64,000 nucleotides of DNA from an uncultured virus (IMG/VR IMGVR_UViG_3300020048_000037) (Duplodnaviria > Heunggongvirae > Uroviricota > Caudoviricetes): the IMG/VR virus record IMGVR_UViG_3300020048_000037, one strand, 5' to 3'. The notes below the pieces were generated by a model. That model had not been told where the DNA came from and made no database searches. It saw only the letters and a list, made by a program, of their open reading frames with translations. Numbering within the stretch: position 1 is the stretch's first letter; every line of letters starts with the position of its first letter. This document shows, piece after piece, positions 1,886 to 59,474 of this stretch. The position numbers and the translations under genes are program-made.

Positions 1886-2401
1886 ATGAAATATTTAAAA
1901 TCATTCGAAGAAATAAAAGTTTATCAAAAACATTACGATCCTTATTATTTACTTAATCTTGTTTCTTATAAATATAACATTGAAGAAATGCTGATTAATC
2001 TTATAGATTCAGGACAATTTAATTTAAATTTAGCTGGACAAGTCAATAAAAAAACTGCATTAATATATGCTATGATTAATAGATATGAAAAAGTATTTGA
2101 CTCTTTAATCAAGGCTGGAGCAAATTTAGATAGTCAAGATGAAAATGGTAACACAGCATTAATTTTAGCTGCATATGGTAGTAATGGAACAAGTGGATCA
2201 TATTTTAAATCAATGATAGAGAAATTAATAGACGCAGGGGCTGATTGGAATATAAAACAATCATATACATCAAAAGAAAATAATAAAGATTTTCTAGAAC
2301 ATATAAAAGATGAAGAATTTAAACGTCATATAATAAAGAAATATCATAAAAAATATGAAGAATATTTAATTAAAAAAGACTCATATAAGTATAATATATG
2401 A
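1886..2401 (+). CDS. Ankyrin-repeat protein, dual-tag family
   Basis: TALIYA..LIKAGANLDSQDENGNTALILAA..LIDAGAD; MKYLKSFE...YKYNI*. Confidence 0.85.
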   Translation: MKYLKSFEEIKVYQKHYDPYYLLNLVSYKYNIEEMLINLIDSGQFNLNLAGQVNKKTALIYAMINRYEKVFDSLIKAGANLDSQDENGNTALILAAYGSNGTSGSYFKSMIEKLIDAGADWNIKQSYTSKENNKDFLEHIKDEEFKRHIIKKYHKKYEEYLIKKDSYKYNI

Positions 2402-2428
2402 AAAAAGACATCAATAAGATGTCTTTTA
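2402..2428. terminator. Bidirectional intrinsic terminator
   Basis: AAAAGACATC-aataa-GATGTCTTTT between convergent genes. Confidence 0.7.
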
Positions 2429-2449
2429 ATTTAGAAAATATATTAATTT

Positions 2450-2650
2450 TTAACCAATAACTTCTACATTTACACAATTTAAGCCTTTTTTTCCATCAAC
2501 TAACTCAAAACTAACTTCATCATTTTCATAGATTTTATCTTGAATGTCAGTGACATGAACAAAATAATCTTTGTTTGTTTCTTTTTCTGTGACAAACCCA
2601 TATCCGCGATCTTCTCGAAAAAATTTAACAACTCCTTGTAATTTACTCAT
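2450..2650 (-). CDS. csp: Cold-shock domain protein
   Basis: GVVKFF..RGYGFV..DYFVH..VSFELVDGKKG (RNP1/RNP2 motifs of CspA family). Confidence 0.92.
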   Translation of the reverse strand: MSKLQGVVKFFREDRGYGFVTEKETNKDYFVHVTDIQDKIYENDEVSFELVDGKKGLNCVNVEVIG

Positions 2651-2721
2651 TTATTTATTTATTTATTTTTATTATTGTGGAAAAAATTCCACATACTATA
2701 TAGTAATAAATAAAAAAAAGT

Positions 2722-3675
2722 TTATAAATATTTAAAATAATTTTTTTTGTGTGATTTTTTATTTCCTGATAGTACTTCCCATATTCTATTACTTTTGGTA
2801 TTAAAATAATCTGCACATTTTTTTACACTATCAAATTCTTTTATTGTTTCTCCGCTTTCTGATATTTGAGCAACTGGTTTAGACCTTATTAATTTATTTT
2901 CATCTGACATTGGTCCTTTTTTTATTCCAGTCATAGCTTTACTCATTTTAAGTTTAACTTCATCTGATCTTTTTTGTCCAGTGTTTTTTTTAACTCTTTT
3001 TTCAATAGTTTCTTTGCTTTGTTTTTTACCTTTATTTAATATACTTAATTTTAATTTAGTTTCATCACTTATTATTTTACCTTTTTGTGATTTGCTTTGT
3101 TTTAATCTGGTTTCATAAGTAGTTATTCTACCTTTCAGAGAGTTACTTAATTTTAATTTAGTTTCATCTGATAAATGAGTACCTTTCAATTTATCAGATA
3201 TTTTCTTTTTAGTTTCGTCTGTTTGTATTCTTCCTAAATTATTTTTATTACCAGTACTTTTTTGCCTTAATATTTTCTTTGTTTCGTCACTGTGTCTCAT
3301 TCCTAAATTGTGTCCAGCATTAGGTACAATATTATATCCATTTTTACAGCAATCTAAAAAATCTATATAATATTGTTCTCTAATTATAATATTTTCTATT
3401 TTACATTCTTCAACAATTTCATATTTAAAATTTTCTATACCATATTTATCATAAGCTCGTTGTAATTTAATTGAATGATGTTTATTCTTTTTTAATTGAT
3501 TTTTATGTTGATTTATTCTTCCTTTAACATTCAATGATGATCCAATATAGCATTTGTTATCTNNNNNNNNNNNNNNNNNNNNNNNNNNNNNNNNNNNNNN
3601 NNNNTAAAAGTTTTTTGTATTTTCATATAATGTTTTATATGTATATATAAATATATTAAAGTTCAAATTAGACAA
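2722..3675 (-). CDS. GIY-YIG homing endonuclease with NUMOD3-like repeats (5' end uncertain, N gap)
   Basis: CYIGSS..R..QH..L..NKHHS.KLQRAYDKYG; repeated (H/Q)SDETKxK(I/L)S; C-terminal NUMOD1-like HTH. Confidence 0.85.
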   Translation of the reverse strand: MSNLNFNIFIYTYKTLYENTKNFXXXXXXXXXXXXXXXDNKCYIGSSLNVKGRINQHKNQLKKNKHHSIKLQRAYDKYGIENFKYEIVEECKIENIIIREQYYIDFLDCCKNGYNIVPNAGHNLGMRHSDETKKILRQKSTGNKNNLGRIQTDETKKKISDKLKGTHLSDETKLKLSNSLKGRITTYETRLKQSKSQKGKIISDETKLKLSILNKGKKQSKETIEKRVKKNTGQKRSDEVKLKMSKAMTGIKKGPMSDENKLIRSKPVAQISESGETIKEFDSVKKCADYFNTKSNRIWEVLSGNKKSHKKNYFKYL

Positions 3676-9175: not shown

Positions 9176-9663
9176 ACATTAAATTTTTTCGATATTTTTT
9201 CTAATTCTTTTTTCTTTTTATATTCAACTAGATTAATTGATTGATATTTTTTAGATGATTGATATTCTATTTCACCATTTTTTTTAGTATATATATATGA
9301 ATCTCCAAGTATTTTACATAATCCTTCTATATCTTCTAAATTATTATCATCTAGTCCTCTATCAAAAAATCCTACACCGTGTCCATTTCTAGTGTACCAT
9401 AAATCTGAACCTATTACATCATCTGATAAATCTTCTAATGAATCTCCAGCAGCAGAAATAAACCATTCCACTTCAGTAGTTATATTATCTATTGAATCTT
9501 TATCAAAATCATAAATAGTTTTACCTTCAAACTCATCTACCTCATCACCTTTGTTTTGAACTTCCTCAGTAAAAAGTGCGGTTATACAATAATTATCTAC
9601 TATTGTTTTTATGTCATGTTCATTATCAAAATCTACATCTTCAAAGTATTTTAAGTGTTTCAT
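9172..9663 (-). CDS. Dual-tag family protein
   Basis: Start reassigned to MKHLKYFE (9663); DLWYTRNGHGVGFFDR; ends KKFNV*. Confidence 0.8.
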   Translation of the reverse strand: MKHLKYFEDVDFDNEHDIKTIVDNYCITALFTEEVQNKGDEVDEFEGKTIYDFDKDSIDNITTEVEWFISAAGDSLEDLSDDVIGSDLWYTRNGHGVGFFDRGLDDNNLEDIEGLCKILGDSYIYTKKNGEIEYQSSKKYQSINLVEYKKKKELEKISKKFNV

Positions 9664-9664
9664 A

Positions 9665-10096
9665 TTATATGTTAAATTTTGTTGATAATAAAAAAATGTC
9701 ATATTCTTTTTTTATTTCACTTGGGTTTATTTTTTTGTCTATTGCTGTTAGTAAAAAATCAAATATTCTTATTTCATCTTCTGTTAAATCTGCATTAACT
9801 TCAGATTCTTCTATCCAAAACTCAATTATCTTATAAGTATCTTTTTCAACTCCTATAACCTTATAAGAAGGTTGAACTTTCTTGAATCCGTTACGATCAA
9901 ATGTACTATTTTCAACTTCAATTATTTTAGCAAATGTTCCAATGATATTCCATTCACTTTCATTTTCATCTATTTTTATATAATCACCAACATTTTGATT
10001 AGTATAATGTTCAAATTCTTCTTCATCTTCCTCATCATAAATATCTTCAATATCTTCAATATCTTCAATATTTTCAAAGTATTTTAAGTATTTCAT
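9665..10096 (-). CDS. Dual-tag family, GDYV-like member
   Basis: MKYLKYFE...TKFNI*. Confidence 0.8.
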   Translation of the reverse strand: MKYLKYFENIEDIEDIEDIYDEEDEEEFEHYTNQNVGDYIKIDENESEWNIIGTFAKIIEVENSTFDRNGFKKVQPSYKVIGVEKDTYKIIEFWIEESEVNADLTEDEIRIFDFLLTAIDKKINPSEIKKEYDIFLLSTKFNI

Positions 10097-13264: not shown

Positions 13265-14680
13265 TTGAGTGGAATGTTTAAAAACACAAATCAATATTCT
13301 TTTGATTACAATAAAAGTGATTATGATGATTTAATTTCTATAGCCAAGAAGTATAGGAATGTAAAGAATTATGTTTACTCATCTTTTTCTGGAATTCATT
13401 CATATTTAAAGGTTTATAATCAAAGAAAGGATATACGTGATGTTTGGACAAAGAATGGGTTTATTGACACTTGGGGAATTTCAAGACGGTATATTAGAAA
13501 TGCGATAGAAGATGCTGTGAGTGATATTAAGGTTAGTTGGAAACAAACTTTAAAGAAAACAAGGAAAGATATAAATAAATCAAAGTTGAATAAGGAAGAA
13601 AAAATATTTGCTTACACCATTTTAAAGAACAAATTATTTCTCTTTAACGTTTTAACTCAAATAGAGTTTGATGTAGATAAATTTGATGATATTGATAAAT
13701 TAAAGATGCTCAAGTTGATTCGTAGATTGATCAGGAAGAATAAACCAAGAATATCAAACACGAAAAAACTATCCATGTTAATTGATAATGAGATGTATAG
13801 TTATGACTCAGAAAATATATTAATAACATCTTCAGTCAAGAATAAACGATTCAAGTTTAAGGTTAACACTAATGATAGATACACTGGTAGTATTAGAATT
13901 GTAATAGAAGATGATAGAATTCGTTTTTCAAATAGTATCACAATTAAGACTAAAACCATTGATTATGAACAAGAAAGGATTGGAGTTGATAAAAACTACA
14001 TCAACTGTTTTGATACAAACAATGAAACATCATATGGTTTAAAGTTGAACGATAAAATAGTTTCACTGAGTGATAAACTTCAAGCAAAAAACAGCAAAAG
14101 ACAGTTTTATCATAATAAAATAACGGATGAAAAAGATTTAAAGAAGATAAATAATATCAAAAAATTCAATCTTGGTAAAAAGAAATATAATAAAACAAAA
14201 AATGCGTTGCAGGAAGAGATTCGTAAACATGTTAACCAAGCAGTTAATAAAATGATTCTAACTGAAAAGCCAAAAGAAATTGTAATGGAGAAACTTGATT
14301 TCACCAGCAAAGCCAAAAAAATTAGAAAGAAAAGAATAAATAGACTACTTTCAACCTGGACCAAAGGATACCTACAGGAAAGAGTAGAATATAAATCAGA
14401 ACAAAATAATATTAAAATAATAGACTGTAATGCAGCTTACACATCACAAGAATGCCCGTCATGCCATGACTTCGGTCATAAAACAAACGACATTTTTTAT
14501 TGTGACAATCATAAATGTGATAACCACGAGGGTGTGAATTCTGGACATTCGGCAGCAAAGGTAGTTTTACAACGGAGTTATGATAAAGATATAAACCTCT
14601 TTACGACATATAAAAACGTTAAAACTATCTTGACTAAACGGTTGGAAGAATTAAAAACCGATCCAACCAAGATATCGTAA
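13265..14680 (+). CDS. tnpB: TnpB-like (IS200/IS605/IS607 family) RuvC + zinc-finger protein, possibly nuclease-dead
   Basis: RIGVD (RuvC-I), IVMEKL (RuvC-II), YTSQECPSC..FYC..C zinc finger; NSGHSAA where NADxNAA is expected; no tnpA nearby. Confidence 0.85.
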   Translation: MSGMFKNTNQYSFDYNKSDYDDLISIAKKYRNVKNYVYSSFSGIHSYLKVYNQRKDIRDVWTKNGFIDTWGISRRYIRNAIEDAVSDIKVSWKQTLKKTRKDINKSKLNKEEKIFAYTILKNKLFLFNVLTQIEFDVDKFDDIDKLKMLKLIRRLIRKNKPRISNTKKLSMLIDNEMYSYDSENILITSSVKNKRFKFKVNTNDRYTGSIRIVIEDDRIRFSNSITIKTKTIDYEQERIGVDKNYINCFDTNNETSYGLKLNDKIVSLSDKLQAKNSKRQFYHNKITDEKDLKKINNIKKFNLGKKKYNKTKNALQEEIRKHVNQAVNKMILTEKPKEIVMEKLDFTSKAKKIRKKRINRLLSTWTKGYLQERVEYKSEQNNIKIIDCNAAYTSQECPSCHDFGHKTNDIFYCDNHKCDNHEGVNSGHSAAKVVLQRSYDKDINLFTTYKNVKTILTKRLEELKTDPTKIS

Positions 14681-15533: not shown

Positions 15534-16109
15534 ATGCAAAGAATCAAAGATATTATAAAAAGTTCAATAGATGTTAAAAATATAATATTAAATGATAATA
15601 GATTAATTGAAGCTATTGATGAAGTGATAATGATACTATATACTTGTTTTCAGAATGGTGGTAAGGTTCTTTTGTGTGGAAATGGTGGTAGTGCTGCTGA
15701 TGCTCAACATATAGCTGCTGAATTGTCTGGTAGATTTTATTTAGATAGAGATCCTTTATTTGCTGAAGCATTACACGTTAATACTTCATATTTGACAGCA
15801 GTTGCAAATGATTATTCATTTGATGATGTATACTCAAGATTAGTAAAAGGAATGGGTAGAAAAAATGACATTTTAATTGGAATATCTTGTTCAGGTAACT
15901 CAACAAATATTATAAATGCATTTGAAAAAGCAAAAGAAATAGGAATGATTACTATTGCATTTACTGGTTATAATGGTGGTACACTCAAAAAAGTCAGTGA
16001 TTATATAATAAATATACCATCAACTGATACACCAAGAATACAAGAATCTCATATAATGATAGGACATATTATATGTGAAATAGTTGAAAATAAAATGTTT
16101 AAAAAATAA
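15534..16109 (+). CDS. gmhA: D-sedoheptulose 7-phosphate isomerase
   Basis: LLCGNGGSAADAQHIAAEL..ANDY..GISCSGNS..TPRIQESHIMIGHIIC; ATG start MQRIKD. Confidence 0.95.
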   Translation: MQRIKDIIKSSIDVKNIILNDNRLIEAIDEVIMILYTCFQNGGKVLLCGNGGSAADAQHIAAELSGRFYLDRDPLFAEALHVNTSYLTAVANDYSFDDVYSRLVKGMGRKNDILIGISCSGNSTNIINAFEKAKEIGMITIAFTGYNGGTLKKVSDYIINIPSTDTPRIQESHIMIGHIICEIVENKMFKK

Positions 16110-25788: not shown

Positions 25789-25990
25789 ATCAAAATTTAA
25801 AAAAGATGATATCATTGTTGTATTAAAAGATTTTTTTATACCAGGAACAGGTGTTACATTTAGTTATTATAAAGGACATAAATATAAATTAGAATGTATT
25901 TTAAAATGGCAAGTTCCTGTGAGACATGAGGTTAATTTAATAACTAAAATTGAAAGAAAGAAAAAAATAATTAAAATAAATAATGGATAA
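25778..25990 (+). CDS. Hypothetical protein, RxxK tag
   Basis: ERKKKIIKINNG*. Confidence 0.65.
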   Translation: MENKSKFKKDDIIVVLKDFFIPGTGVTFSYYKGHKYKLECILKWQVPVRHEVNLITKIERKKKIIKINNG

Positions 25991-28322
25991 TTACTTTATA
26001 AAAGCAAGCACAAGTTTCATTGGACAAACTGGTTATAATGCACATGCAAGAGATTTTTTCACAGCATTAAGCAAAAAAAATAACTTAAAAATTAGAAATT
26101 TTACTGTTGGTAAAAGTTGGAATGGATTAGGAGTAAAATTAAATAATGGTAGATATGGTGATCCACACAAAAAAGAAAAATATTTAACTGAATATCAAAG
26201 AAATTTGATTTCAGAACAAACATTATATTCTGATCCAAATACACCAGGTTATTACAATGGACTCTGTGATTTTAATATAAACACTGAAAGTCTAGTTGAA
26301 TATACTCAAGATAAAATAATTGATATTATATTAAGTGAAACTAATCATCAATATTTTTATAATCTTGAAAAATATAAAGGATTCAAAATAGCATATAATG
26401 TATGGGAATCAACTAAATATGATGATGATTTCTTTGAATTATTAAAACAATATGATCAATTTTGGTGTCCATCTGAATGGCAAAAACAATGCGTTATAAA
26501 TCAAGGATATCCAAAAGATAGAGTGTTTGTAGTACCTGAAGCAGTTGATGGTAACATATTTAAACCAGATTTTTTTAATTCTGAAATTGATATGTATAAA
26601 GATAATAGATTCAAATTTGTTATGTTTGGTAGATGGGAATATAGAAAATCTACAAAAGAAATTATTGAAACATTTTTAAAAACTTTCACAAAAGAAGATC
26701 CAGTAGATTTAATATTAGCTGTTGATAATTCTGATTATGCTAATGATGGAATGAAAACAACTGAAAATAGATTAGAGTTTTATAATTTTAAAGATGATAG
26801 ACTAAAGGTTCTACATTTTGTCGAAAGAAAGGATTATATTAATTATTTAAAAAATGGTCATGTATTTTTATCTTGTTCAAGATCAGAAGGTTGGAATTTA
26901 CCTCTTTGTATTCCTTCTGGTAAATTAATATTTAGTAATAATAGTTTTATAACAATAGAATCAATAAAGGAAAATGATATTGTTATTAGTCACACAGGAA
27001 AAGAGCAAAAAGTATTAAAAGCATTTAAAAATAAATACAATGGTGATATAACAAAAATTGATTTATATAATGATTTTGAACAATTAGAATTAACTCCAGA
27101 ACATCCTGTTTATGCGATTAAAAGAAATAAATTTATAACAAAAAAAGGAAAATTTAATAACATACCAAATATTAAGCCAGAGTGGATAAAATCAAAAGAT
27201 ATTAAAAAAGGAGATATAATTTTAAGAACAACTATACCTCAAACTTATTTTGAAACAGAAAAATTTGATTTGCTTACATTAGATGATACTTTATTATATG
27301 ATAATGAAAAAGTGTGGTATAAAACAGGATATAATTATAAAAGTGAAAAACTTACATATAATAGATTTATTAATTTGTATGATTTATCTTTTTTATTTGG
27401 TTGGTATATAGCAGAAGGTTGTGATTCATCATATAAGTTGACTTTTTCTTTAAATGCACAAAAAGAAATACATATAGCGGAAAATATTATATCTGAGATA
27501 AAAATAATATTTAATGCAAAAGGAACATATTTTATTAAAGATAATAGATTAGTTGTAGTTTTTAATTCTACTATTTTATGTAAATTTTTTAATAATTTCT
27601 GTGGAAAAATGTCATATAATAAAATAATACCAGAAAAATATCTTTTAGGACCATTAAATATTTTAGATGAATTAGTTAAAAACATGGTATTAGGTGATGG
27701 ATGTTTTTTAGATGCAACTAATAGATTTAATTATACAACAGTATCAAAAATATTAGCTAGACAATTAATGTTTGCTAATCAAAGATTGAATAAAAAAACA
27801 TCACTACAACTTAATAAAAGGAAAAGAATTGATAAGAGACCTTGTTATACGTTATCTTGGAGTATAAATAATGAAAATTACAGGCATAGTAATAAGTCTT
27901 GGTGGCATCCTGAAGGATTAGCAATTTTAGTAAAAAATATTAAATTTGAAAAATATGATGATTATGTTTATAACTGTGAAATTGAAAATGATAATTCATA
28001 TCTTATGTCAAACGCAACAGTACATAATTGTGAATCGTTGGCTTGTGGTACACCATCAATATATTCTAATTGTAGTGGTCAGTTAGAATTTGCAGAAGGA
28101 AAAGGACATCCAGTTAAAATATTACATGAAACTCCTGTTCCTAATGGAGTTGGAAATTATTATGAGCCAGATTTTAACGATTTATCAAAAGTGATGAAAG
28201 ATGTATATGTAAATTATTGGAGATATAAAGAAAAAGCAATAAAAGAATCAGAAATTATTAGAAATGAATTTTCTTGGGAAAATGCAGCAGATAAAGCTAT
28301 AAAAATACTTAATAATATATGA
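25983..28322 (+). CDS. GT4-type glycosyltransferase interrupted by an intein
   Basis: TGYNAHAR, YNVWES, GRWEYRK, SRSEGWNLPL|CESLACGTP. Confidence 0.9.
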   Translation: MDNYFIKASTSFIGQTGYNAHARDFFTALSKKNNLKIRNFTVGKSWNGLGVKLNNGRYGDPHKKEKYLTEYQRNLISEQTLYSDPNTPGYYNGLCDFNINTESLVEYTQDKIIDIILSETNHQYFYNLEKYKGFKIAYNVWESTKYDDDFFELLKQYDQFWCPSEWQKQCVINQGYPKDRVFVVPEAVDGNIFKPDFFNSEIDMYKDNRFKFVMFGRWEYRKSTKEIIETFLKTFTKEDPVDLILAVDNSDYANDGMKTTENRLEFYNFKDDRLKVLHFVERKDYINYLKNGHVFLSCSRSEGWNLPLCIPSGKLIFSNNSFITIESIKENDIVISHTGKEQKVLKAFKNKYNGDITKIDLYNDFEQLELTPEHPVYAIKRNKFITKKGKFNNIPNIKPEWIKSKDIKKGDIILRTTIPQTYFETEKFDLLTLDDTLLYDNEKVWYKTGYNYKSEKLTYNRFINLYDLSFLFGWYIAEGCDSSYKLTFSLNAQKEIHIAENIISEIKIIFNAKGTYFIKDNRLVVVFNSTILCKFFNNFCGKMSYNKIIPEKYLLGPLNILDELVKNMVLGDGCFLDATNRFNYTTVSKILARQLMFANQRLNKKTSLQLNKRKRIDKRPCYTLSWSINNENYRHSNKSWWHPEGLAILVKNIKFEKYDDYVYNCEIENDNSYLMSNATVHNCESLACGTPSIYSNCSGQLEFAEGKGHPVKILHETPVPNGVGNYYEPDFNDLSKVMKDVYVNYWRYKEKAIKESEIIRNEFSWENAADKAIKILNNI
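26907..28028 (+). mobile_element. Intein with LAGLIDADG homing endonuclease (374 aa)
   Basis: Starts CIPSG, block B LTPEHPV, GWYIAEG and MVLGDG motifs, ends VHN followed by Cys+1. Confidence 0.92.
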
Positions 28323-29446: not shown

Positions 29447-30805
29447 TTATTTCTTCTTTTTGTAAAAAATATCTAACCAATTGTTTTTTTTACAAATTCT
29501 ATATATTTTGTGATTTTTATTTTTTAGTTCACTTCTATTTTTAAATTTTGATGTAATAATTTTACATGTATCAAAATTACATTTTTCATTTGGATAAAAG
29601 TCATCTAACCAATTATTTTTTTTACTAAAATTATATATTGTTCTTTTATTATGTGACAATTCATATATTGTATTATATTTTAATGATATTTTTTTACAGT
29701 AATCATAATTCAGTTTTCTGTTTGATCCACCTAAATTACCACCTTTGACTTTATTTAAAATATTGTAGTTCAATTTCCTATAGTATTCAATAAAAATTAT
29801 TTCCATTTCTTGTGCTTGCTCATATGGTATAAAATCTGTCAATTCGTTAAATATAGGAGTTATTTTTGTTTTATTTATATATTCTATAACAGATGAATTT
29901 GTATTTTTGTTTAAATGTTGGTTATATCTAGTTTTTATATTGCAAGTTAATCCAATATAAATAGATTTATCTTCAAATTCAAATGAATATATTATTCTAT
30001 CTGATTTGTTTATAGTTGTTGTCATATGGGAACAAACATCATTCAGCCATTTATTTTTATTACATTTTAGGTATGCTACATTACTTTTTTTAATCCATTC
30101 TGATTTAGTTGTATATTTTAATGCATCTTCATGACATCTTTCTTTAGTCCAATAATCATTTGGTTGTCTACCAATTATCATATGTGAGCAAATTTCATCA
30201 AGACAATTTAATTTTAGTGATGCTTTATATGCATCATAATGATTATTCATAAATTCTATTTTATCTTTACATAGAATAGATATTTCTAAACATTTTTCTT
30301 TAGTCCAATAGCCTTTTGGTTTTTGTTTTTCTGACATATGTATACAAATATCATCTAACCAATTATTTTTTCTGGATATAGAATAAGCAGTAGAATAATT
30401 TATACTAAATTCTCTTCTACTATTACATAATAATGACTTGTCATGACATCTTTCTTTAGTCCAATATCCATTTGGTTGTTTAACAATTATCATATGTGAA
30501 CAAATTTCATCCAACCAATTATTATCACATGAAATTCTATAAATATGAGATTTTTTTGACTTAAAATCACTTCGTGTAGTATATTTTAATGCAACCTCAT
30601 GACATTTTTCTTTATTCCAATATCCTGTTTTATTTTTAATTATAATCATATGATTGCATATATCATATAACCATTTATTTTTTACACATTTAACATACGC
30701 TGATGAATATTTATTATTGAATTCTATTCTACTACTACATAGTAATGCGACTTCATGGCATTTTTCTTTTGTCCAATAGTTTCTTAATTTATTTTTTTCA
30801 TTCAT
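29447..30805 (-). CDS. GIY-YIG endonuclease with tandem YWTKExC repeats (cassette 2)
   Basis: Five approx. 52-aa repeats YWTKEKCH..WLDxICxHM; IIYSFEF..IYIGLT..RYNQH. Confidence 0.85.
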   Translation of the reverse strand: MNEKNKLRNYWTKEKCHEVALLCSSRIEFNNKYSSAYVKCVKNKWLYDICNHMIIIKNKTGYWNKEKCHEVALKYTTRSDFKSKKSHIYRISCDNNWLDEICSHMIIVKQPNGYWTKERCHDKSLLCNSRREFSINYSTAYSISRKNNWLDDICIHMSEKQKPKGYWTKEKCLEISILCKDKIEFMNNHYDAYKASLKLNCLDEICSHMIIGRQPNDYWTKERCHEDALKYTTKSEWIKKSNVAYLKCNKNKWLNDVCSHMTTTINKSDRIIYSFEFEDKSIYIGLTCNIKTRYNQHLNKNTNSSVIEYINKTKITPIFNELTDFIPYEQAQEMEIIFIEYYRKLNYNILNKVKGGNLGGSNRKLNYDYCKKISLKYNTIYELSHNKRTIYNFSKKNNWLDDFYPNEKCNFDTCKIITSKFKNRSELKNKNHKIYRICKKNNWLDIFYKKKK

Positions 30806-55911: not shown

Positions 55912-56649
55912 ATGATGTCAGACAAAAAAACATGTTATCAAAAACCATTATCAGTAATTTGTATAAAATCAAATAATACAAAATTAATAATAGGTGCAAA
56001 ATATTTAGCAACAACAATGTATTACGTATATAATAGTAATGTTAAAAAAGTTGCAATAAAAAATGTTGGTAATTATACTGCTGATTCTTTTACATTAGAA
56101 ACTGGAGAACCATTAATTGATTTAGATGTATTTTTTGTTAATAGTGCTAAAGACTTAGATATAGAAAATAATAATTATGTAGGTAAACTTGTTAGATGCC
56201 GTTATAGTGATAGTAAAATATTAAAAAATGGACAAATATATTATGTTGAAGAACAATTTATAGATAGAACAAAAAAATACCTTAGTTATTATATAAAAAT
56301 TAAAGGTGTCAAACATAAAATTCAGTCATATAATTTTGAAGAACTACCTGTTTCTGAACAAAGAGCAATAAAAATAAAAAATATAGCAGGAGATAAACTA
56401 AAAACAACAGAAACAACACGAAAATTTTTACTTTATACTGAAATTGAAAAAACTGAAATTTTATTAAAATCACTATTATTAATATTATCAGATATTAATA
56501 AAATAGAAAATCTAGATAAATTAAATATTGATATAATTCAACTAATAAAAAATAAATGTAAAAAATATAACGTCATAGAAGATGATATTTATATTTTTCT
56601 AAAAAATGATATAAAATCAATAATTGATTTGTATGGTATAAAAATATAG
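55912..56649 (+). CDS. Hypothetical protein
   Basis: Internal QRAIKIKNI motif. Confidence 0.65.
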   Translation: MMSDKKTCYQKPLSVICIKSNNTKLIIGAKYLATTMYYVYNSNVKKVAIKNVGNYTADSFTLETGEPLIDLDVFFVNSAKDLDIENNNYVGKLVRCRYSDSKILKNGQIYYVEEQFIDRTKKYLSYYIKIKGVKHKIQSYNFEELPVSEQRAIKIKNIAGDKLKTTETTRKFLLYTEIEKTEILLKSLLLILSDINKIENLDKLNIDIIQLIKNKCKKYNVIEDDIYIFLKNDIKSIIDLYGIKI

Positions 56650-56685
56650 AATTTAAAAAATAATATATACAAATAAAAAATAACT

Positions 56686-56964
56686 ATGAAGTATATTAAA
56701 AAATTTGAATTTTTAGAATTTGATATACCAGAGAAAATTAAAAAATTGGCTATCGAATTAGATTTTAAATTTAGAACAACAACAAAAGAAGATATGAAAA
56801 ATAAGACTATCTTCCAAATAATAAAAGAACTTGGCTTTGATAGTGGAGAATTAAGTGGAGTTGAACTAGGGCAAATTCTAATGTATCAGATGAAATTCAA
56901 TAAAATGACTGATAATGAATTCTTAAAATTCTATAATAATTATAAAAAAAATCCTGAAATTTAA
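56686..56964 (+). CDS. N-tag family protein
   Basis: MKYIKKFE. Confidence 0.7.
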   Translation: MKYIKKFEFLEFDIPEKIKKLAIELDFKFRTTTKEDMKNKTIFQIIKELGFDSGELSGVELGQILMYQMKFNKMTDNEFLKFYNNYKKNPEI

Positions 56965-56980
56965 ATTTCAGGATTTTTTT
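56945..56980. terminator. Bidirectional terminator closing the tRNA operon
   Basis: AAAAAAATCCTGAAATTTAAATTTCAGGATTTTTTT. Confidence 0.8.
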
Positions 56981-56981
56981 G

Positions 56982-57052
56982 TTCCATTGTATAGATTCAA
57001 ACTATACCTCTAACATTCAATGTGTTATGTGCTATCGCTACACCACAAGGAA
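56982..57052 (-). tRNA. tRNA-Gln(TTG)-like, atypical
   Basis: Cloverleaf; anticodon stem TAACA/TGTTA, loop CA-TTG-AA (A33); D-loop GA with T-loop TTTGAAT; one acceptor mismatch. Confidence 0.65.
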
Positions 57053-57062
57053 ATATAAAATG

Positions 57063-57133
57063 TTCTTACTCTAAGATTCGAACTTAGTCACTCATTTTCA
57101 GATGATGAGATGCTACCATTACATCAAGAAAGA
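57063..57133 (-). tRNA. tRNA-Gln(CTG)
   Basis: TCTTTCT/AGTAAGA acceptor, D-loop AATGGTA, loop AT-CTG-AA, T arm CTAAG-TTCGAAT-CTTAG. Confidence 0.75.
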
Positions 57134-57134
57134 G

Positions 57135-57220
57135 TCGCCTTGGTGGGGTTCGAACCCACAAGCTCATTATGAGCATCAGTTTCAAAGACTGACATGTTTA
57201 GCCAATTCCATCACAAGGCA
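57135..57220 (-). tRNA. Class II (long variable arm, Leu-like body) tRNA with TTG (Gln) anticodon
   Basis: TGCCTTG/CAAGGCG-A; D arm ATGG-AATTGGCTAA-ACAT; TCAGT-CTTTGAA-ACTGA; V arm GCTCA-TAA-TGAGC; GTGGG-TTCGAAC-CCCAC. Confidence 0.85.
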
Positions 57221-57230
57221 GTGATATTTG

Positions 57231-57302
57231 TTGCTCTATTCGGATTCAAACCGAAACTGCGGACTTCAAAGATCCGATTGCTATCATTACAAATATAGAG
57301 CA
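57231..57302 (-). tRNA. tRNA-Gln(TTG)
   Basis: Perfect acceptor TGCTCTA/TAGAGCA; CGGAT-CTTTGAA-GTCCG; TTCGG-TTTGAAT-CCGAA. Confidence 0.8.
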
Positions 57303-57312
57303 TTATATAAAC

Positions 57313-57396
57313 AAAAAAACCAACTTTAATAATTGGGCATAAAAAAACCCAATCTATAAGATTGGGTAAAAAAACAGACACGACTCTAACCCAATC
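57313..57396 (-). promoter_or_regulatory. Transcription attenuator: antiterminator plus two tandem terminators
   Basis: GATTGGGT (57389-57396) competes with AGATTGGGT (57347-57355) for ACCCAATCT (57359-57367); U-tracts at 57341-57346 and 57313-57319. Confidence 0.8.
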
Positions 57397-57448
57397 AAAC
57401 GAAAGTTTGTTGTTGTTGCTGAGTCATATTTGAAATATTTTTATTCAT
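57395..57448 (-). CDS. Gln-rich leader peptide MNKNISNMTQQQQQTFV
   Basis: ATG..ACT CAG CAA CAA CAA CAA ACT TTC GTT TGA; stop overlaps antiterminator strand. Confidence 0.8.
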   Translation of the reverse strand: MNKNISNMTQQQQQTFV

Positions 57449-57473
57449 TGTAAATTCAATTAAAGTCGTAATG

Positions 57474-57482
57474 TATATAGTA
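57474..57482 (-). promoter_or_regulatory. Putative phage TATATA-type promoter for leader/tRNA operon
   Basis: TACTATATA about 25 nt upstream of leader ATG; same motif precedes many operons. Confidence 0.45.
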
Positions 57483-57493
57483 ATATATTTTTA

Positions 57494-57697
57494 TTAAGTT
57501 TTTTCTATTTTTAAATTTTCTAAATCTTTTTTTGTTGCGATATCAAATAATTGAATATATTCATGTAATTCTAAATCACACAGTCTTTTTTTATTAAACA
57601 ATTCAAACATTGTTTTCCATCCATCAACTTCATTCCAATCCAATAGATAATAATATCCTCTAGCTGGTACTTGTGTATAATCAATTAATTCTTTCAT
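57494..57697 (-). CDS. Hypothetical protein
   Basis: 67-aa ORF. Confidence 0.6.
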   Translation of the reverse strand: MKELIDYTQVPARGYYYLLDWNEVDGWKTMFELFNKKRLCDLELHEYIQLFDIATKKDLENLKIEKT

Positions 57698-57720
57698 ATT
57701 TATATTTATTTTTATTTTTT

Positions 57721-57844
57721 AAAAAGAAACTCTCGCAATAGAAATAAAACAATATAAACTTTTAAAAAATAATGATTAAATTGCGAGAGTTTCAAACGAA
57801 AAAAGAAAAAACACTGCTTCACAGCAAACAAGAATACAAAGATA
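57721..57844 (-). ncRNA. Candidate small RNA or structured leader
   Basis: TATCTTTG box (57837-57844), 14-bp stem GAAACTCTCGCAAT/ATTGCGAGAGTTTC with 40-nt loop followed by U-tract. Confidence 0.4.
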
Positions 57845-57897
57845 ATATAATTTTTTTATATACCAAATTTTTTATATATAAATAAAAAATATTTTTC

Positions 57898-58332
57898 ATG
57901 AAACACATCAAATCATTCAAATTATATGAAACAGGAGAATGGAATAAAAATATAACATGGGAATATGTTAAAAATAATCCTGATGATGATAGTCAAGAAT
58001 CTAATATGATATTTTTTTTAAGTGAAACACTATCAGATTTAATATTATTATTAAATGATGATTATATTAAAATCCTTGATATAAAAGGATATGATATATC
58101 AACAGGACCATATGCTAATGTGAGTATTTTAGGAAATTTTTATAAAATATGGATTTCTAATGAAAGAGATAGCGATTTATATATTGAAAATTTTCCAATT
58201 GATAATTGCTCAGAAATTGACTTAATACCTGGATATATTGGTAGTATTAAAGAAATAGCACACATTATTAATAGCGTTGCTATTAGTGGTGGTTTTGAAT
58301 TATATGACTCAACAAAAAAATTTAATGTATAA
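57898..58332 (+). CDS. Dual-tag family protein
   Basis: MKHIKSFKLYE...KKFNV*. Confidence 0.8.
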   Translation: MKHIKSFKLYETGEWNKNITWEYVKNNPDDDSQESNMIFFLSETLSDLILLLNDDYIKILDIKGYDISTGPYANVSILGNFYKIWISNERDSDLYIENFPIDNCSEIDLIPGYIGSIKEIAHIINSVAISGGFELYDSTKKFNV

Positions 58333-59474
58333 TGAAATATTTAATATATTTTAATGAAAGTATTGAAAATAATATAGATAACTCATCAAATGATTTTACA
58401 ACATTATATGAAGATGATAATTGGATTGTAACAAAAGCAAAATCATACGAGTCTTTAGAAACTTGGTCAGAAGATGGTAATATAAATATGAAAACACATC
58501 GTTATGATTTTTCAAATTTATATTTAAATACAAATAAAAAAGATAATACTAAAATTGTATTAAATTTCGATAGAACAGATTTTTATAATATTGATGATGA
58601 TGTTATTTATTTGAAAGATTTTTTTGATGAAAATAATTATTTATTTAAATTTTATAGTAGTATTATACCATGTGATAATATTGTAAAAGACAATAATGAT
58701 TATTGGCTAGTAGTTAAAGATTATTCATTTTTTGAAGATTACTTTAAATTAGATAGTGGAACAAGACATGATTTAATTAAAGAAATATTATCAGATGAAG
58801 GTTATAATGCAGATTACTCTACATCTAATTTTGAGTTAGATGAAAATATTAAATTAAATAAGGATAATTTAGATATTGTTAAAATTTTATTGTTTCTTGA
58901 AAAAATTGAAAATGATTACGAATATAATATTGATGATATATCTGATTATGATGATGTTGTTAGTATAATAGAAGAATATGATTTAGATGATATTATAAGA
59001 ATATTTAAAAGTTGTATTTGTACAGGACATGAAAGAGCAGATAGTAATGCTGCATGGAACGATATTTTTAATGAAATTGTTTCTTTTTTTGGTATTGATG
59101 AAAATATTATTAAATGGGATCATTATAATAATAGCATAGGACAAATGTTATGGTTAAAATTCAATAGTGAATCTGATGCAAATAATGCTAAATTTATTAT
59201 ACTCAAACCAGATGATAGTTATGAAGATGATATAATTGAATATTCACCACCTTATTATGGATATTCTGGAGATTCAAAATATATAGTAGAAACATTTAAT
59301 GAAGAATTTATTGATAGAATAACAGAATATGATAATGTTGATGTAAATTATGATAAAATAATAGATTATTATAATTTTTTTAAAGAAAAACAAGAAATAA
59401 ATCCGAATATAAAAATCACAGATATATATGGTGATTATAAAATATATTTAGATACTAAAAAATTTAACATATAA
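58332..59474 (+). CDS. Large acidic dual-tag family protein
   Basis: MKYLIYFNE...KKFNI*. Confidence 0.8.
   Translation: MKYLIYFNESIENNIDNSSNDFTTLYEDDNWIVTKAKSYESLETWSEDGNINMKTHRYDFSNLYLNTNKKDNTKIVLNFDRTDFYNIDDDVIYLKDFFDENNYLFKFYSSIIPCDNIVKDNNDYWLVVKDYSFFEDYFKLDSGTRHDLIKEILSDEGYNADYSTSNFELDENIKLNKDNLDIVKILLFLEKIENDYEYNIDDISDYDDVVSIIEEYDLDDIIRIFKSCICTGHERADSNAAWNDIFNEIVSFFGIDENIIKWDHYNNSIGQMLWLKFNSESDANNAKFIILKPDDSYEDDIIEYSPPYYGYSGDSKYIVETFNEEFIDRITEYDNVDVNYDKIIDYYNFFKEKQEINPNIKITDIYGDYKIYLDTKKFNI

What the first reader, a model, noticed from the sequence alone, without database searches (positions are those of the whole stretch)
56982..57482. Glutamine-sensing leader-peptide attenuator controlling a phage tRNA-Gln array
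Seen (minus strand): a TATATA-type box, then a 17-aa ORF MNKNISNMTQQQQQTFV* with five consecutive Gln codons (1 CAG + 4 CAA). Four tRNA genes follow, all with Gln anticodons (3 TTG + 1 CTG), and a terminator closes the unit. Between leader and tRNAs are mutually exclusive pairings. AUAUGACUC in the leader pairs with GAGUCGUGU (protector). GAUUGGGU overlapping the stop codon can pair with ACCCAAUC (antiterminator). Otherwise ACCCAAUCU-UAU-AGAUUGGGU-U6 forms a terminator. Established: this is the geometry of trp/his-type ribosome-mediated attenuation. Inference: a ribosome that reaches the stop covers GAUUGGGU and transcription terminates. A ribosome stalled on the Gln run frees it and the tRNAs are transcribed. 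The phage would therefore make tRNA-Gln only when charged tRNA-Gln is scarce (starvation, or host anticodon-nuclease defence). I know such attenuators for amino-acid biosynthesis and synthetase operons, not for tRNA arrays in phages.
Basis: partly seen in the sequence, partly recalled or inferred. Interest (0 to 1): 0.96.

Follow-up and report, generated by a model that had tools for sequence, protein, structure and literature searches.

The report
Glutamine-codon switch before phage tRNA genes
A giant phage puts a tiny test gene with five glutamine codons and a switchable transcription stop in front of its four glutamine tRNA genes, so it probably makes these tRNAs only when ribosomes read glutamine codons slowly.

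Summary
It holds the 17-codon ORF with the window's only run of five Gln codons. It holds the protector, antiterminator and terminator pairings. It holds four tRNA genes, all with Gln anticodons, and a closing terminator.

Comparison supports the interpretation. Twelve distinct homologous leaders from huge-phage contigs keep the ATG, the frame, the Gln run and the 10 or 13 nt spacing to the antiterminator arm. 32 of the 33 tRNAs downstream of them are Gln.

Sister units in the same phages have the same three-arm design but other codons. Their leaders match their own arrays: Glu, Leu, Leu+Tyr and mixed sets. Shuffling the leader-array pairing never reached the observed match (0 of 200,000).

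The protector helix covaries. Ribosome-footprint folding puts the on/off boundary one codon after the Gln run.

There are no expression data, and the transcription start is unknown.

Five literature searches found no account of such control of tRNA genes. This scan has noted the same kind of element on other DNA (46 earlier notes), none of them on this sequence.

Verdict: a real, Gln-specific member of a probably undescribed family of attenuators. Confidence is about 0.8.

The parts
57468..57483 (-). Promoter-like box holding TATATA (57478-57473). It is identical in the four closest Gln-type homologues. The transcription start is unknown.
   Evidence: A TATATA-type box lies upstream of every unit inspected. 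No promoter scan or transcript data support it.
57395..57448 (-). Leader ORF: ATG, 17 codons, TGA.
   Evidence: The frame is kept in 12 of 12 distinct homologous sequences. It has no Shine-Dalgarno sequence, but none of the 88 ORFs of 100 aa or more in the window has one either.
57407..57421 (-). Sensor run of five Gln codons (CAG and 4 CAA).
   Evidence: It is the only (CAR)5 in the window, and 0 of 100 shuffles gave one. Homologues spell the run with other CAA/CAG mixes.
57421..57429 (-). Segment 1 (AUAUGACUC), the 5' arm of the protector helix P1.
   Evidence: fold; 96.5% of cells are paired in 11 sequences, and 3 of 8 pairs changed on both sides.
57396..57409 (-). Small inner hairpin CAAAC-UUUC-GUUUG. 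It joins the last Gln codon to the start of segment 2.
   Evidence: 2 of 5 pairs show changes on both sides.
57389..57396 (-). Segment 2 (GAUUGGGU), the antiterminator arm. It overlaps the stop codon TGA (57397-57395).
   Evidence: I15, D1; the duplex with segment 3 is -12.4 kcal/mol, against -4.8 +/- 1.6 for shuffled upstream sequence (1 of 500 as low).
57368..57386 (-). Segment 1' (GAGUCGUGU, 57386-57378), then CUG and U7 (57374-57368). P1 followed by this U-run looks like an extra terminator that would act when nothing is translating the leader.
   Evidence: The U-run is conserved in the 11 aligned sequences. Its role as a terminator is inferred.
57341..57367 (-). Terminator T1: segment 3 (ACCCAAUCU), loop UAU, segment 4 (AGAUUGGGU), then a U-tract.
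   Evidence: Hairpin energy -11.0 kcal/mol.
57313..57338 (-). Second hairpin with U7 (T2). Segment 5 is GCCCAAU, segment 6 is GUUGG. Segment 5 can also pair with segment 4.
   Evidence: (I3). A second hairpin followed by a U-run can be read in 7 of the 11 aligned Gln-type sequences (WIN, L044, L048, L055, L050, L057, L128); in L137 the hairpin has no U-run after it.
57231..57302 (-). tRNA-Gln (UUG), 72 nt. It starts 10 nt after the T2 U-tract.
   Evidence: Rfam 46.2 bits. ARAGORN at lowered threshold.
57134..57220 (-). tRNA-Gln (UUG) with a long variable arm, 87 nt.
   Evidence: Rfam 50.6 bits. Orthologues in 4 other arrays keep the arm, with compensatory changes.
57062..57133 (-). tRNA-Gln (CUG), the weakest of the four. 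It has a U-U mismatch in the acceptor stem.
   Evidence: ARAGORN only. No Rfam match even at E up to 10. The orthologue in L044 has a perfect acceptor stem.
56982..57052 (-). tRNA-Gln (UUG) with A at position 33 and one acceptor-stem mismatch.
   Evidence: Rfam 35.9 bits. ARAGORN at lowered threshold.
56945..56980 (-). Closing terminator with a 16-pair stem. It is shared with the convergent + strand ORF 56686-56964.

Best explanation
This is a ribosome-mediated (leader-peptide) transcription attenuator that gates the phage's four tRNA-Gln genes.

How it works:
- Transcription starts upstream of the leader. It must pass two or three hairpin-plus-U-tract stops to reach the tRNAs, because only 10 nt separate the last U-tract from the first tRNA.
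- A ribosome that reads the five Gln codons quickly reaches the stop codon and covers segment 2. Segments 3 and 4 then form the terminator, and transcription ends before the tRNAs.
- A ribosome that waits on a Gln codon covers segment 1 and leaves segment 2 free. Segment 2 pairs with segment 3 before segment 4 is made, so the terminator cannot form and the tRNA genes are transcribed.
- With no ribosome on the leader, the protector helix locks segment 2 away, and in the model segment 3 stays free for the terminator.
- The product (tRNA-Gln) relieves the stall, so the circuit is a negative feedback on the capacity to decode Gln codons.

Shown:
- the sequence elements;
- their conservation;
- covariation of the protector helix;
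- the match between leader codons and downstream tRNAs across a family of sister units.

Inferred:
- that the leader is translated;
- that termination occurs;
- the direction of the response;
- the natural trigger.
For: The window itself:
- The only (CAR)5 run in the window lies about 100 nt upstream of the window's only tRNA cluster, and all four tRNAs are Gln.
- The leader uses 4 CAA and 1 CAG. The array has 3 UUG and 1 CUG anticodons. The window's ORFs of 150 aa or more use 208 CAA and 31 CAG.

Homologous Gln units:
- There are 12 distinct Gln-type leader sequences in viral and metagenome contigs.
- In 12 of 12 the run lies in an ATG-started frame.
- The spacing from run to segment 2 is 10 nt in 10 of them and 13 nt in 2.
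- The stop codon starts at -1 or -7 relative to segment 2.
- 32 of the 33 tRNAs within 700 nt downstream are Gln.

Sister units:
- A finder that asks only for a terminator, an upstream complement and a short ORF gave 30 hits in 490 kb scanned. The same sequence read backwards gave 4.
- 25 of the 30 hits have tRNAs downstream.
- Their leaders mirror their arrays: Glu, Leu, Leu+Tyr, Gln/Glu/Met, Arg/Gly/Asp/Cys and others.
- For 12 representative units, 0 of 200,000 permutations of the leader-array pairing reach the observed match.
- The window's own 5 Gln in 16 residues has binomial p = 1.6e-5.
- The same design occurs in the published 636-kb genome LR756504.1.

Structure:
- The protector helix is 96.5% paired in 11 sequences, and 3 of 8 pairs changed on both sides. 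Slid controls pair at 18-47%.
- Segments 2, 3 and 4 change together between units, for example AUCGGGGU/ACCCCGAU and GAGACUGGGU/ACCCGGUCUC.
- The 2:3 duplex is -12.4 kcal/mol and the terminator is -11.0.

Footprint model:
- With a 5' UTR of 18 nt or less, segment 3 pairs upstream with probability 0.98-1.00 while the A site is on any of the five Gln codons or the next codon.
- That probability falls to 0.14-0.18 on the last two codons and the stop, and is 0.14-0.17 with no ribosome.
- In the nine other units modelled, the boundary also falls within a few codons after the cognate block.

Translation start:
- The leader lacks a Shine-Dalgarno sequence, like 88 of 88 ORFs of the window.
Against: - There are no transcript, 3'-end or ribosome data. 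No RNA run holds the sequence.
- The transcription start is unknown. If the 5' UTR is 22 nt or longer, a stretch found only in this window (57469-57460) pairs with segment 1' and segment 2. The modelled switch then fails unless a second, queued ribosome covers that stretch.
- At equilibrium the full leader still favours the terminator under a stalled-ribosome mask in this window and in L050. The switch must therefore work kinetically, as I recall is also held for the trp attenuator.
- In L044 the second terminator T2 forms in every modelled state. How it is passed is unexplained.
- Inside the Gln family the 2:3 pairing never varies, so it gives no covariation. The family was found with a pattern that fixed those arms.
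- Two of the four tRNAs have defects.
- 110 of the 212 tRNAs in the analysed loci are not within 3 kb downstream of a unit that the strict finder detects. Inspection by eye showed that some units had been missed.
- It is not known which polymerase transcribes the unit, or whether it obeys intrinsic terminators.
Confidence: 0.8

Rival explanations
1. The attenuator is real but not Gln-specific. It senses any slowing of translation (ribosome shortage, inhibitors, general stress), and the Gln run is merely a slow patch.
For: In the footprint model, any stall from about codon 5 up to the codon after the Gln run frees the antiterminator.
Against: Specificity follows the array in every family examined: Gln before Gln, Glu before Glu, Leu before Leu, and mixed sets before mixed arrays. 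The permutation test gave 0 of 200,000. 32 of 33 tRNAs behind Gln leaders are Gln. A general sensor would not need matched codons.
Confidence: 0.08
2. It is an RNA-only sensor. The Gln codons in the loop of the protector helix pair directly with the anticodon of tRNA-Gln, as in a T-box riboswitch, and no ribosome is involved.
For: The codon run lies in the loop closed by helix P1. Matching codons to tRNAs is also the logic of T-box leaders.
Against: No T-box family or any other known leader family matched at E up to 10. The only leader-family hit, Thr_leader at 27 bits against a cut-off of 55, covers the closing terminator. ATG, frame and stop are kept in 12 of 12 sequences with length changes in whole codons. 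Many sister leaders carry 6 to 17 different cognate codons in one frame, which a single specifier loop would not need.
Confidence: 0.05
3. There is no regulation. The hairpins are constitutive tandem terminators of the upstream 67-codon ORF, the tRNAs have a promoter of their own or depend on leaky read-through, and the Gln ORF is coincidence.
For: The upstream ORF (57697-57494) ends 46 nt before the leader. TATAAT-like letters lie at 57308-57303. AT-rich DNA yields many short ORFs.
Against: A start about 7 nt after 57303 would fall inside the tRNA. Only 10-14 nt separate the last U-tract from the first tRNA in the relatives too. The Gln run, the frame and the three-arm repeat are conserved. 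The codon match recurs in independent units.
Confidence: 0.04
4. The element acts with the opposite sign or at another level, for example a stalled ribosome that promotes termination, or control of tRNA precursor processing or stability.
For: No experiment fixes the direction. The protector helix with its own U-run, and the second terminator T2, show that the leader is more complex than the simple model.
Against: The geometry gives the opposite result. The stop codon overlaps the antiterminator arm, and the cognate run ends 10 nt before it. Shutting off a tRNA when its codons are read slowly makes no obvious sense.
Confidence: 0.03

Closest known systems
Leader-peptide attenuators of enterobacterial amino-acid operons (trpL, hisL, pheL). 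Textbook knowledge, recalled. Of PMC1183508 and PMC3082878 I saw only the abstracts in search listings.
   Same: A short ORF with a run of regulatory codons. A terminator hairpin with a U-tract. An antiterminator that shares one arm with the terminator. A protector pairing that includes the codon region. A stop codon placed so that a finished ribosome blocks the antiterminator.
   Different: The regulated genes are tRNAs, not enzymes, so the product is the very molecule whose shortage stalls the ribosome. It lies in a phage. It uses Gln, for which I recall no classical leader. It has up to three successive hairpin-U-tract stops. It has no Shine-Dalgarno sequence.
Attenuator of the pheST (phenylalanyl-tRNA synthetase) operon of E. 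coli.
   Same: A leader peptide whose cognate codons control a gene of the translation apparatus rather than of biosynthesis.
   Different: It controls a synthetase, not tRNA genes, and it is cellular, not viral.
Multivalent leaders (thr: Thr and Ile; ilvGMEDA: Ile, Leu, Val). Recalled.
   Same: The sister units in the same phages carry leaders that mix several cognate amino acids, each represented in the regulated genes.
   Different: The window's own unit is monovalent (Gln only). The phage units mix up to about seven amino acids, matched to tRNA genes.
T-box riboswitches. Of PMC2879506 I saw only the abstract in the search listing.
   Same: They sense the state of a specific tRNA through its codon and switch a terminator/antiterminator pair.
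   Different: T-boxes need no ribosome and have conserved stem I, specifier-loop and T-box motifs. No T-box family matched here, and the element is an intact reading frame.
Codon-matched leader attenuators before phage tRNA arrays, noted earlier by this scan on other genomes. These are AI notes, mostly unchecked.
   Same: The same idea: a leader spelled in the amino acids of the tRNA block behind it, with a switchable terminator.
   Different: Those listed are mostly multivalent. None lies on this sequence or on a look-alike of it. This unit is a pure single-amino-acid case with a homopolymeric run and an all-Gln array.

Membership tests
Ribosome-mediated leader-peptide transcription attenuator (trp/his type) | A short ORF with start and stop codons just upstream of the regulated genes | tested here: met
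   57448-57395. The frame is kept in 12 of 12 homologous sequences.
Ribosome-mediated leader-peptide transcription attenuator (trp/his type) | Regulatory codons cognate to the regulated product, enriched or in tandem | tested here: met
   Five Gln codons in a row before four tRNA-Gln genes. Binomial p = 1.6e-5, and the family-wide permutation gave 0 of 200,000.
Ribosome-mediated leader-peptide transcription attenuator (trp/his type) | An intrinsic terminator between the leader and the regulated genes | tested here: met
   57367-57341. A second one lies at 57338-57313.
Ribosome-mediated leader-peptide transcription attenuator (trp/his type) | An antiterminator pairing that excludes the terminator, kept in evolution | tested here: met
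   Exact 8-bp complement. Energy -12.4 kcal/mol against -4.8 for shuffles. It is invariant inside the Gln family, but the three arms change together between sister units.
Ribosome-mediated leader-peptide transcription attenuator (trp/his type) | Codon positions such that a stalled ribosome frees the antiterminator and a ribosome at the stop codon blocks it | tested here: met
   Footprint model. The result holds for a 5' UTR of 18 nt or less, or with a queued second ribosome, and fails for a longer UTR.
Ribosome-mediated leader-peptide transcription attenuator (trp/his type) | The leader is translated, and read-through responds to the supply of the charged cognate tRNA | not testable with these tools
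   No RNA run holds the sequence. This needs reporter or in vitro assays.
T-box riboswitch | Match to the T-box leader model (stem I, specifier loop, T-box sequence) | tested here: not met
   No T-box match among the 29 matches listed at E up to 10 in 56800-57700.
Codon-matched leader attenuators of huge-phage tRNA arrays (provisional class; found here and in the scan's earlier notes) | The three-arm switch and short ORF lie directly upstream of a tRNA array, and the leader's amino acids match that array | tested here: met

The most novel reading that the evidence does not exclude
Huge phages of the Mahaphage kind run a genome-wide decoding monitor. Each block of tRNA genes sits behind its own test ORF, spelled in the codons that block reads. 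The phage thus measures, amino acid by amino acid, whether the host's tRNA pool still works, and it replaces exactly what fails.

The window's unit would be the dedicated glutamine channel. It would switch on four strongly diverged tRNA-Gln genes when host tRNA-Gln is cleaved or depleted by a defence nuclease or by host shut-off. One of these tRNAs has a long extra arm and one has an altered anticodon loop. On this reading the unit is an inducible counter-defence circuit.
Probability: 0.3. Interest if true: 0.95.

Novelty: new variant of a known kind. Interest (0 to 1): 0.86.

Why it matters
Why phages carry tRNA genes has been argued for fifty years, between codon compensation and escape from tRNA-cutting defences (PMC10264068; I saw only its abstract in a search listing). 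An attenuator whose test codons match the tRNAs behind it would show that the phage makes each tRNA set on demand, when decoding of those codons falters. That makes both ideas directly testable.

It would also extend leader-peptide attenuation from amino-acid and synthetase operons to tRNA genes themselves, where the product closes the feedback loop. It would give a compact, programmable sensor of codon-specific decoding capacity. The Gln unit is the cleanest case for experiments: one amino acid, one run, one array.

Tried and rejected
- blastn of 56900-57720 against 50,697 phage records found no match.
- No whole genome is held for the window.
- A search for relatives of the neighbouring 380-aa protein in viral contigs found none.
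- Sequencing runs: no RNA holder is listed, and the 3 holders are DNA runs.
- The first pattern scan gave 8 loci, of which 6 were chance hits in GC-rich or coding DNA.
- In the second scan, 2 of 28 loci (L056, L059) were chance hits.
- In the metagenome scan, 80 of 83 loci were read, and 22 of the 80 had no leader ORF by my criteria.
- A Gln-run pattern found nothing in the four 634-735 kb published genomes. Their units use other arm sequences.
- Equilibrium folding of the whole leader under ribosome masks was not decisive. I replaced it with folding of the transcript cut just before segment 4.
- I considered that pairing of segments 4 and 5 relays the 'on' state past the second terminator. 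The minimum-energy fold supports this in the window but not in L044, so I leave it as a conjecture.
- The finder's second hit in the window (about 15987-16027, minus strand) has a weak terminator and no tRNA. It fits the background of 4 hits in reversed sequence.
The test was then done with automatic clustering.
- I made no protein fold, complex prediction or covariance model, because none bears on the question.
Full report
**Observation**

All positions are on the minus strand. A 17-codon ORF runs from the ATG at 57448 to a TGA at 57397-57395. Its run of CAG plus four CAA (57421-57407) is the only (CAR)5 in the 64-kb window on either strand. None of 100 dinucleotide shuffles contains one.

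The tRNA cluster begins about 100 nt downstream of this run. It is the only tRNA cluster of the window.
- Default ARAGORN calls two tRNAs.
- Rfam calls three above its cut-off, at 50.6, 46.2 and 35.9 bits.
- ARAGORN at a lowered threshold calls all four as tRNA-Gln: UUG, UUG, CUG, UUG.

The terminator at 57367-57341 and the closing terminator at 56980-56945 are both called by the scan. It found 3 sites in 56000-58500 against 0.2 expected. GAUUGGGU over the stop codon is an exact copy of the terminator's 3' arm and an exact complement of its 5' arm. The protector pairing AUAUGACUC with GAGUCGUGU is part of the minimum-energy fold (z = -3.9).

- A second hairpin with U7 lies at 57338-57313.
- A U7 directly follows the protector helix, at 57374-57368.
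- tRNA 3 has an acceptor-stem mismatch, tRNA 4 has A33, and tRNA 2 has a long extra arm.

**Setting**

The window is 22% G+C. It encodes a gp32-like protein, GIY-YIG homing endonucleases, an intein and a TnpB-like protein, so it is a phage.

Its gp32 is closest, at 40-47% identity, to the uncultured phage records of 634-735 kb. These lengths are those of the four largest genomes of the Mahaphage clade, which were predicted to infect Bacteroidetes (PMC7162821; I read passages only; the word stem 'attenuat' does not occur in its main text).

None of the 88 ORFs of 100 aa or more has a Shine-Dalgarno core. This fits such a host. It also means that the leader's lack of one is no argument against its translation.

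**Homologues of the Gln unit**

A pattern built from the three arms found the unit in viral contigs and metagenome contigs. After removing duplicates there are 12 distinct sequences with a run of three or more Gln codons before segment 2.
- In 12 of 12 the run lies in an ATG-started frame. The ATG lies 24-30 nt upstream of the run.
- The run ends 10 nt (10 cases) or 13 nt (2 cases) before segment 2.
- The stop codon starts at -1 or -7 relative to segment 2. All length differences are therefore whole codons.
- The run is spelled with different mixes of CAA and CAG.
- 32 of the 33 tRNAs within 700 nt downstream are Gln; the other is an aberrant call.
- In seven arrays read in full, 22 of 22 tRNAs are Gln. 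Orthologous positions flip between UUG and CUG but stay Gln.

**Sister units**

The contigs that hold Gln units are pieces of huge phages with 18 to 74 tRNA matches each. Looking upstream of their arrays, I found the same three-arm design with other leaders.

I then used a finder that asks only for a terminator, an upstream complement of its 5' arm and a short ORF ending there. It made 30 hits in 490 kb scanned, against 4 in the same sequence read backwards. 25 of the 30 have tRNAs within 3 kb downstream.

The leaders mirror the arrays:
- a Glu-rich leader before two tRNA-Glu;
- Leu-rich leaders before four or five tRNA-Leu;
- an alternating Leu-Tyr block before Tyr and Leu tRNAs;
- an Arg/Gly/Asp/Cys/Met leader before Asp, Arg, Gly, Cys and Met tRNAs;
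- a His/Ser/Phe/Lys/Trp leader before Trp, His, Phe, Ser and Lys tRNAs.

I clustered the 20 distinct leaders automatically into 12 groups and took one of each. The summed fraction of leader residues found in the unit's own array is 6.11, against 3.75 on average when arrays are dealt out at random. None of 200,000 permutations reaches it. The result is the same after subtracting the expectation from array size.

The published 636-kb genome LR756504.1 has the design too. One leader there has a block of Thr, Ile, Arg, Asn and Met before Thr, Asn, Thr, Arg, Arg, Ile and Met tRNAs. Another has a Lys run before Lys tRNAs.

**Structure**

In an alignment of 11 Gln-type sequences, the protector helix is paired in 96.5% of cells, and three of its eight pairs changed on both sides. 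The small inner hairpin has two such pairs. Sliding the partner by 1-3 columns drops pairing to 18-47%.

The antiterminator pairing never varies in this family. This says nothing either way, because the search pattern fixed those arms. Between sister units, which were found without that pattern, segments 2, 3 and 4 change together.

In the window the 2:3 duplex is -12.4 kcal/mol, against -4.8 +/- 1.6 for shuffled upstream sequence (1 of 500 as low). The terminator hairpin is -11.0 kcal/mol.

**Footprint model**

I folded the transcript cut just before segment 4, masking 12 nt upstream to 13 nt downstream of the first base of the P-site codon. For the window with a 5' UTR of 18 nt or less:
- Segment 3 pairs upstream with probability 0.98-1.00 while the A site is on any of the five Gln codons or the next codon.
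- The probability is 0.14-0.18 on the last two sense codons and the stop.
- It is 0.14-0.17 with no ribosome.

In all nine other units modelled, the boundary falls within a few codons after the cognate block.

**Mechanism**

The best reading is therefore classical attenuation applied to tRNA genes. Fast reading of the Gln codons brings the ribosome onto segment 2, and the terminator forms. Slow reading leaves segment 2 free to pre-empt the terminator.

Only 10 nt separate the last U-tract from the first tRNA, so the array can hardly have a promoter of its own. The tRNAs made would relieve the stall, which gives negative feedback.

The protector helix followed by its own U-run may stop transcription when the leader is not translated at all. 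The second terminator may be relayed by 4:5 pairing. The window's fold supports this relay, but that of L044 does not. Both points are conjecture.

**Caveats**

- There are no expression data, and the transcription start is unknown.
- If the 5' UTR is 22 nt or longer, a stretch peculiar to this window (57469-57460) pairs with segments 1' and 2. The model then loses the switch, unless a queued second ribosome covers that stretch.
- Equilibrium folding of the complete leader favours the terminator even under a stall mask in two of four sequences. The switch must therefore be kinetic.
- 110 of the 212 tRNAs in the analysed loci are not within 3 kb downstream of a unit that the strict finder sees. 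Inspection by eye recovered further units that it had missed.
- If glutamine itself, rather than tRNA-Gln, were limiting, more tRNA would not help. The natural trigger remains open.

**Known relatives and novelty**

The element works like the trp, his and phe leaders and like the pheST attenuator (recalled). It meets every defining feature that sequence analysis can test. It is not a T-box.

Five full-text searches turned up no paper describing leader-peptide attenuation of tRNA genes, in phages or in cells. I read only the listings and abstracts of those results.

This scan has noted the same kind of element before on other genomes: 46 notes. None lies on this sequence or on a look-alike of it. 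Those notes are unchecked AI notes and are not independent evidence. I reached the family from my own loci before reading them.

I class the finding as a new variant of a known kind of control. This unit is its cleanest single-amino-acid example.

Noticed in passing
window 57134-57220 (-); orthologues in L042, L044, L048 and L055: A tRNA with a Gln anticodon (UUG) carries a long variable arm of the kind known from Leu, Ser and Tyr tRNAs. The arm is kept in 5 of 7 arrays, and its stem shows compensatory changes. Which amino acid it accepts is unknown.
   Followed up: partly
window 56982-57052 (-): The fourth tRNA-Gln has A instead of the near-universal U at position 33 of the anticodon loop. 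A similar tRNA in L050 has U there. It is either a decaying copy or an anticodon-loop variant of the kind proposed to evade tRNA-cutting defences (PMC10264068, abstract only).
   Followed up: no
window 57460-57469 with 57380-57389 (-): A 10-nt stretch of the 5' region, present only in this window's version of the unit, is complementary to segment 1' and extends onto segment 2 (I12). It would act as an extra lock on the antiterminator if it is transcribed.
   Followed up: partly
L045 about 2440-2570 (+), compared with L062: One leader of the Gln/Asn/Ile/Met type has an extra C in a C-run. Its frame therefore runs on through the terminator, whereas the orthologue is intact. This is either a sequencing error or a broken unit.
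   Followed up: no
L047, L058 and L042 (units before the Leu, Gln and Met arrays): In some units an ORF lies between the terminator and the first tRNA (about 60 codons in L047), so the attenuator would also control a small protein.
   Followed up: no
L039 about 2330-3270 (+) and L040 about 9350-9700 (-): In G001, G+C-rich, structured-looking spacers of 300-600 nt separate some tRNA genes. Some Rfam tRNA matches there are 90-130 nt long, which suggests introns or other RNAs.
   Followed up: no
L171-L175 (LR756504.1), upstream of each unit: A strongly conserved box precedes every leader in this genome: GAAAACATTTT, a few bases, then ATATATACGTTATAAT. It is a likely phage promoter for the tRNA units. 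The window's box (57483-57468) is a variant of it.
   Followed up: no
window 13265-14680 (+), 25983-28322 (+), 2722-3675 (-), 29447-30805 (-): Selfish elements lie in the window: a TnpB/Cas12f-like ORF, a glycosyltransferase-like ORF interrupted by an intein, and two GIY-YIG homing-endonuclease ORFs.
   Followed up: no
many leaders: Most leaders, whatever their cognate block, begin with the same two or three residues after Met (Lys-Asn or Asn-Asn, from A-rich codons). This suggests a shared initiation context rather than sensing.
   Followed up: no
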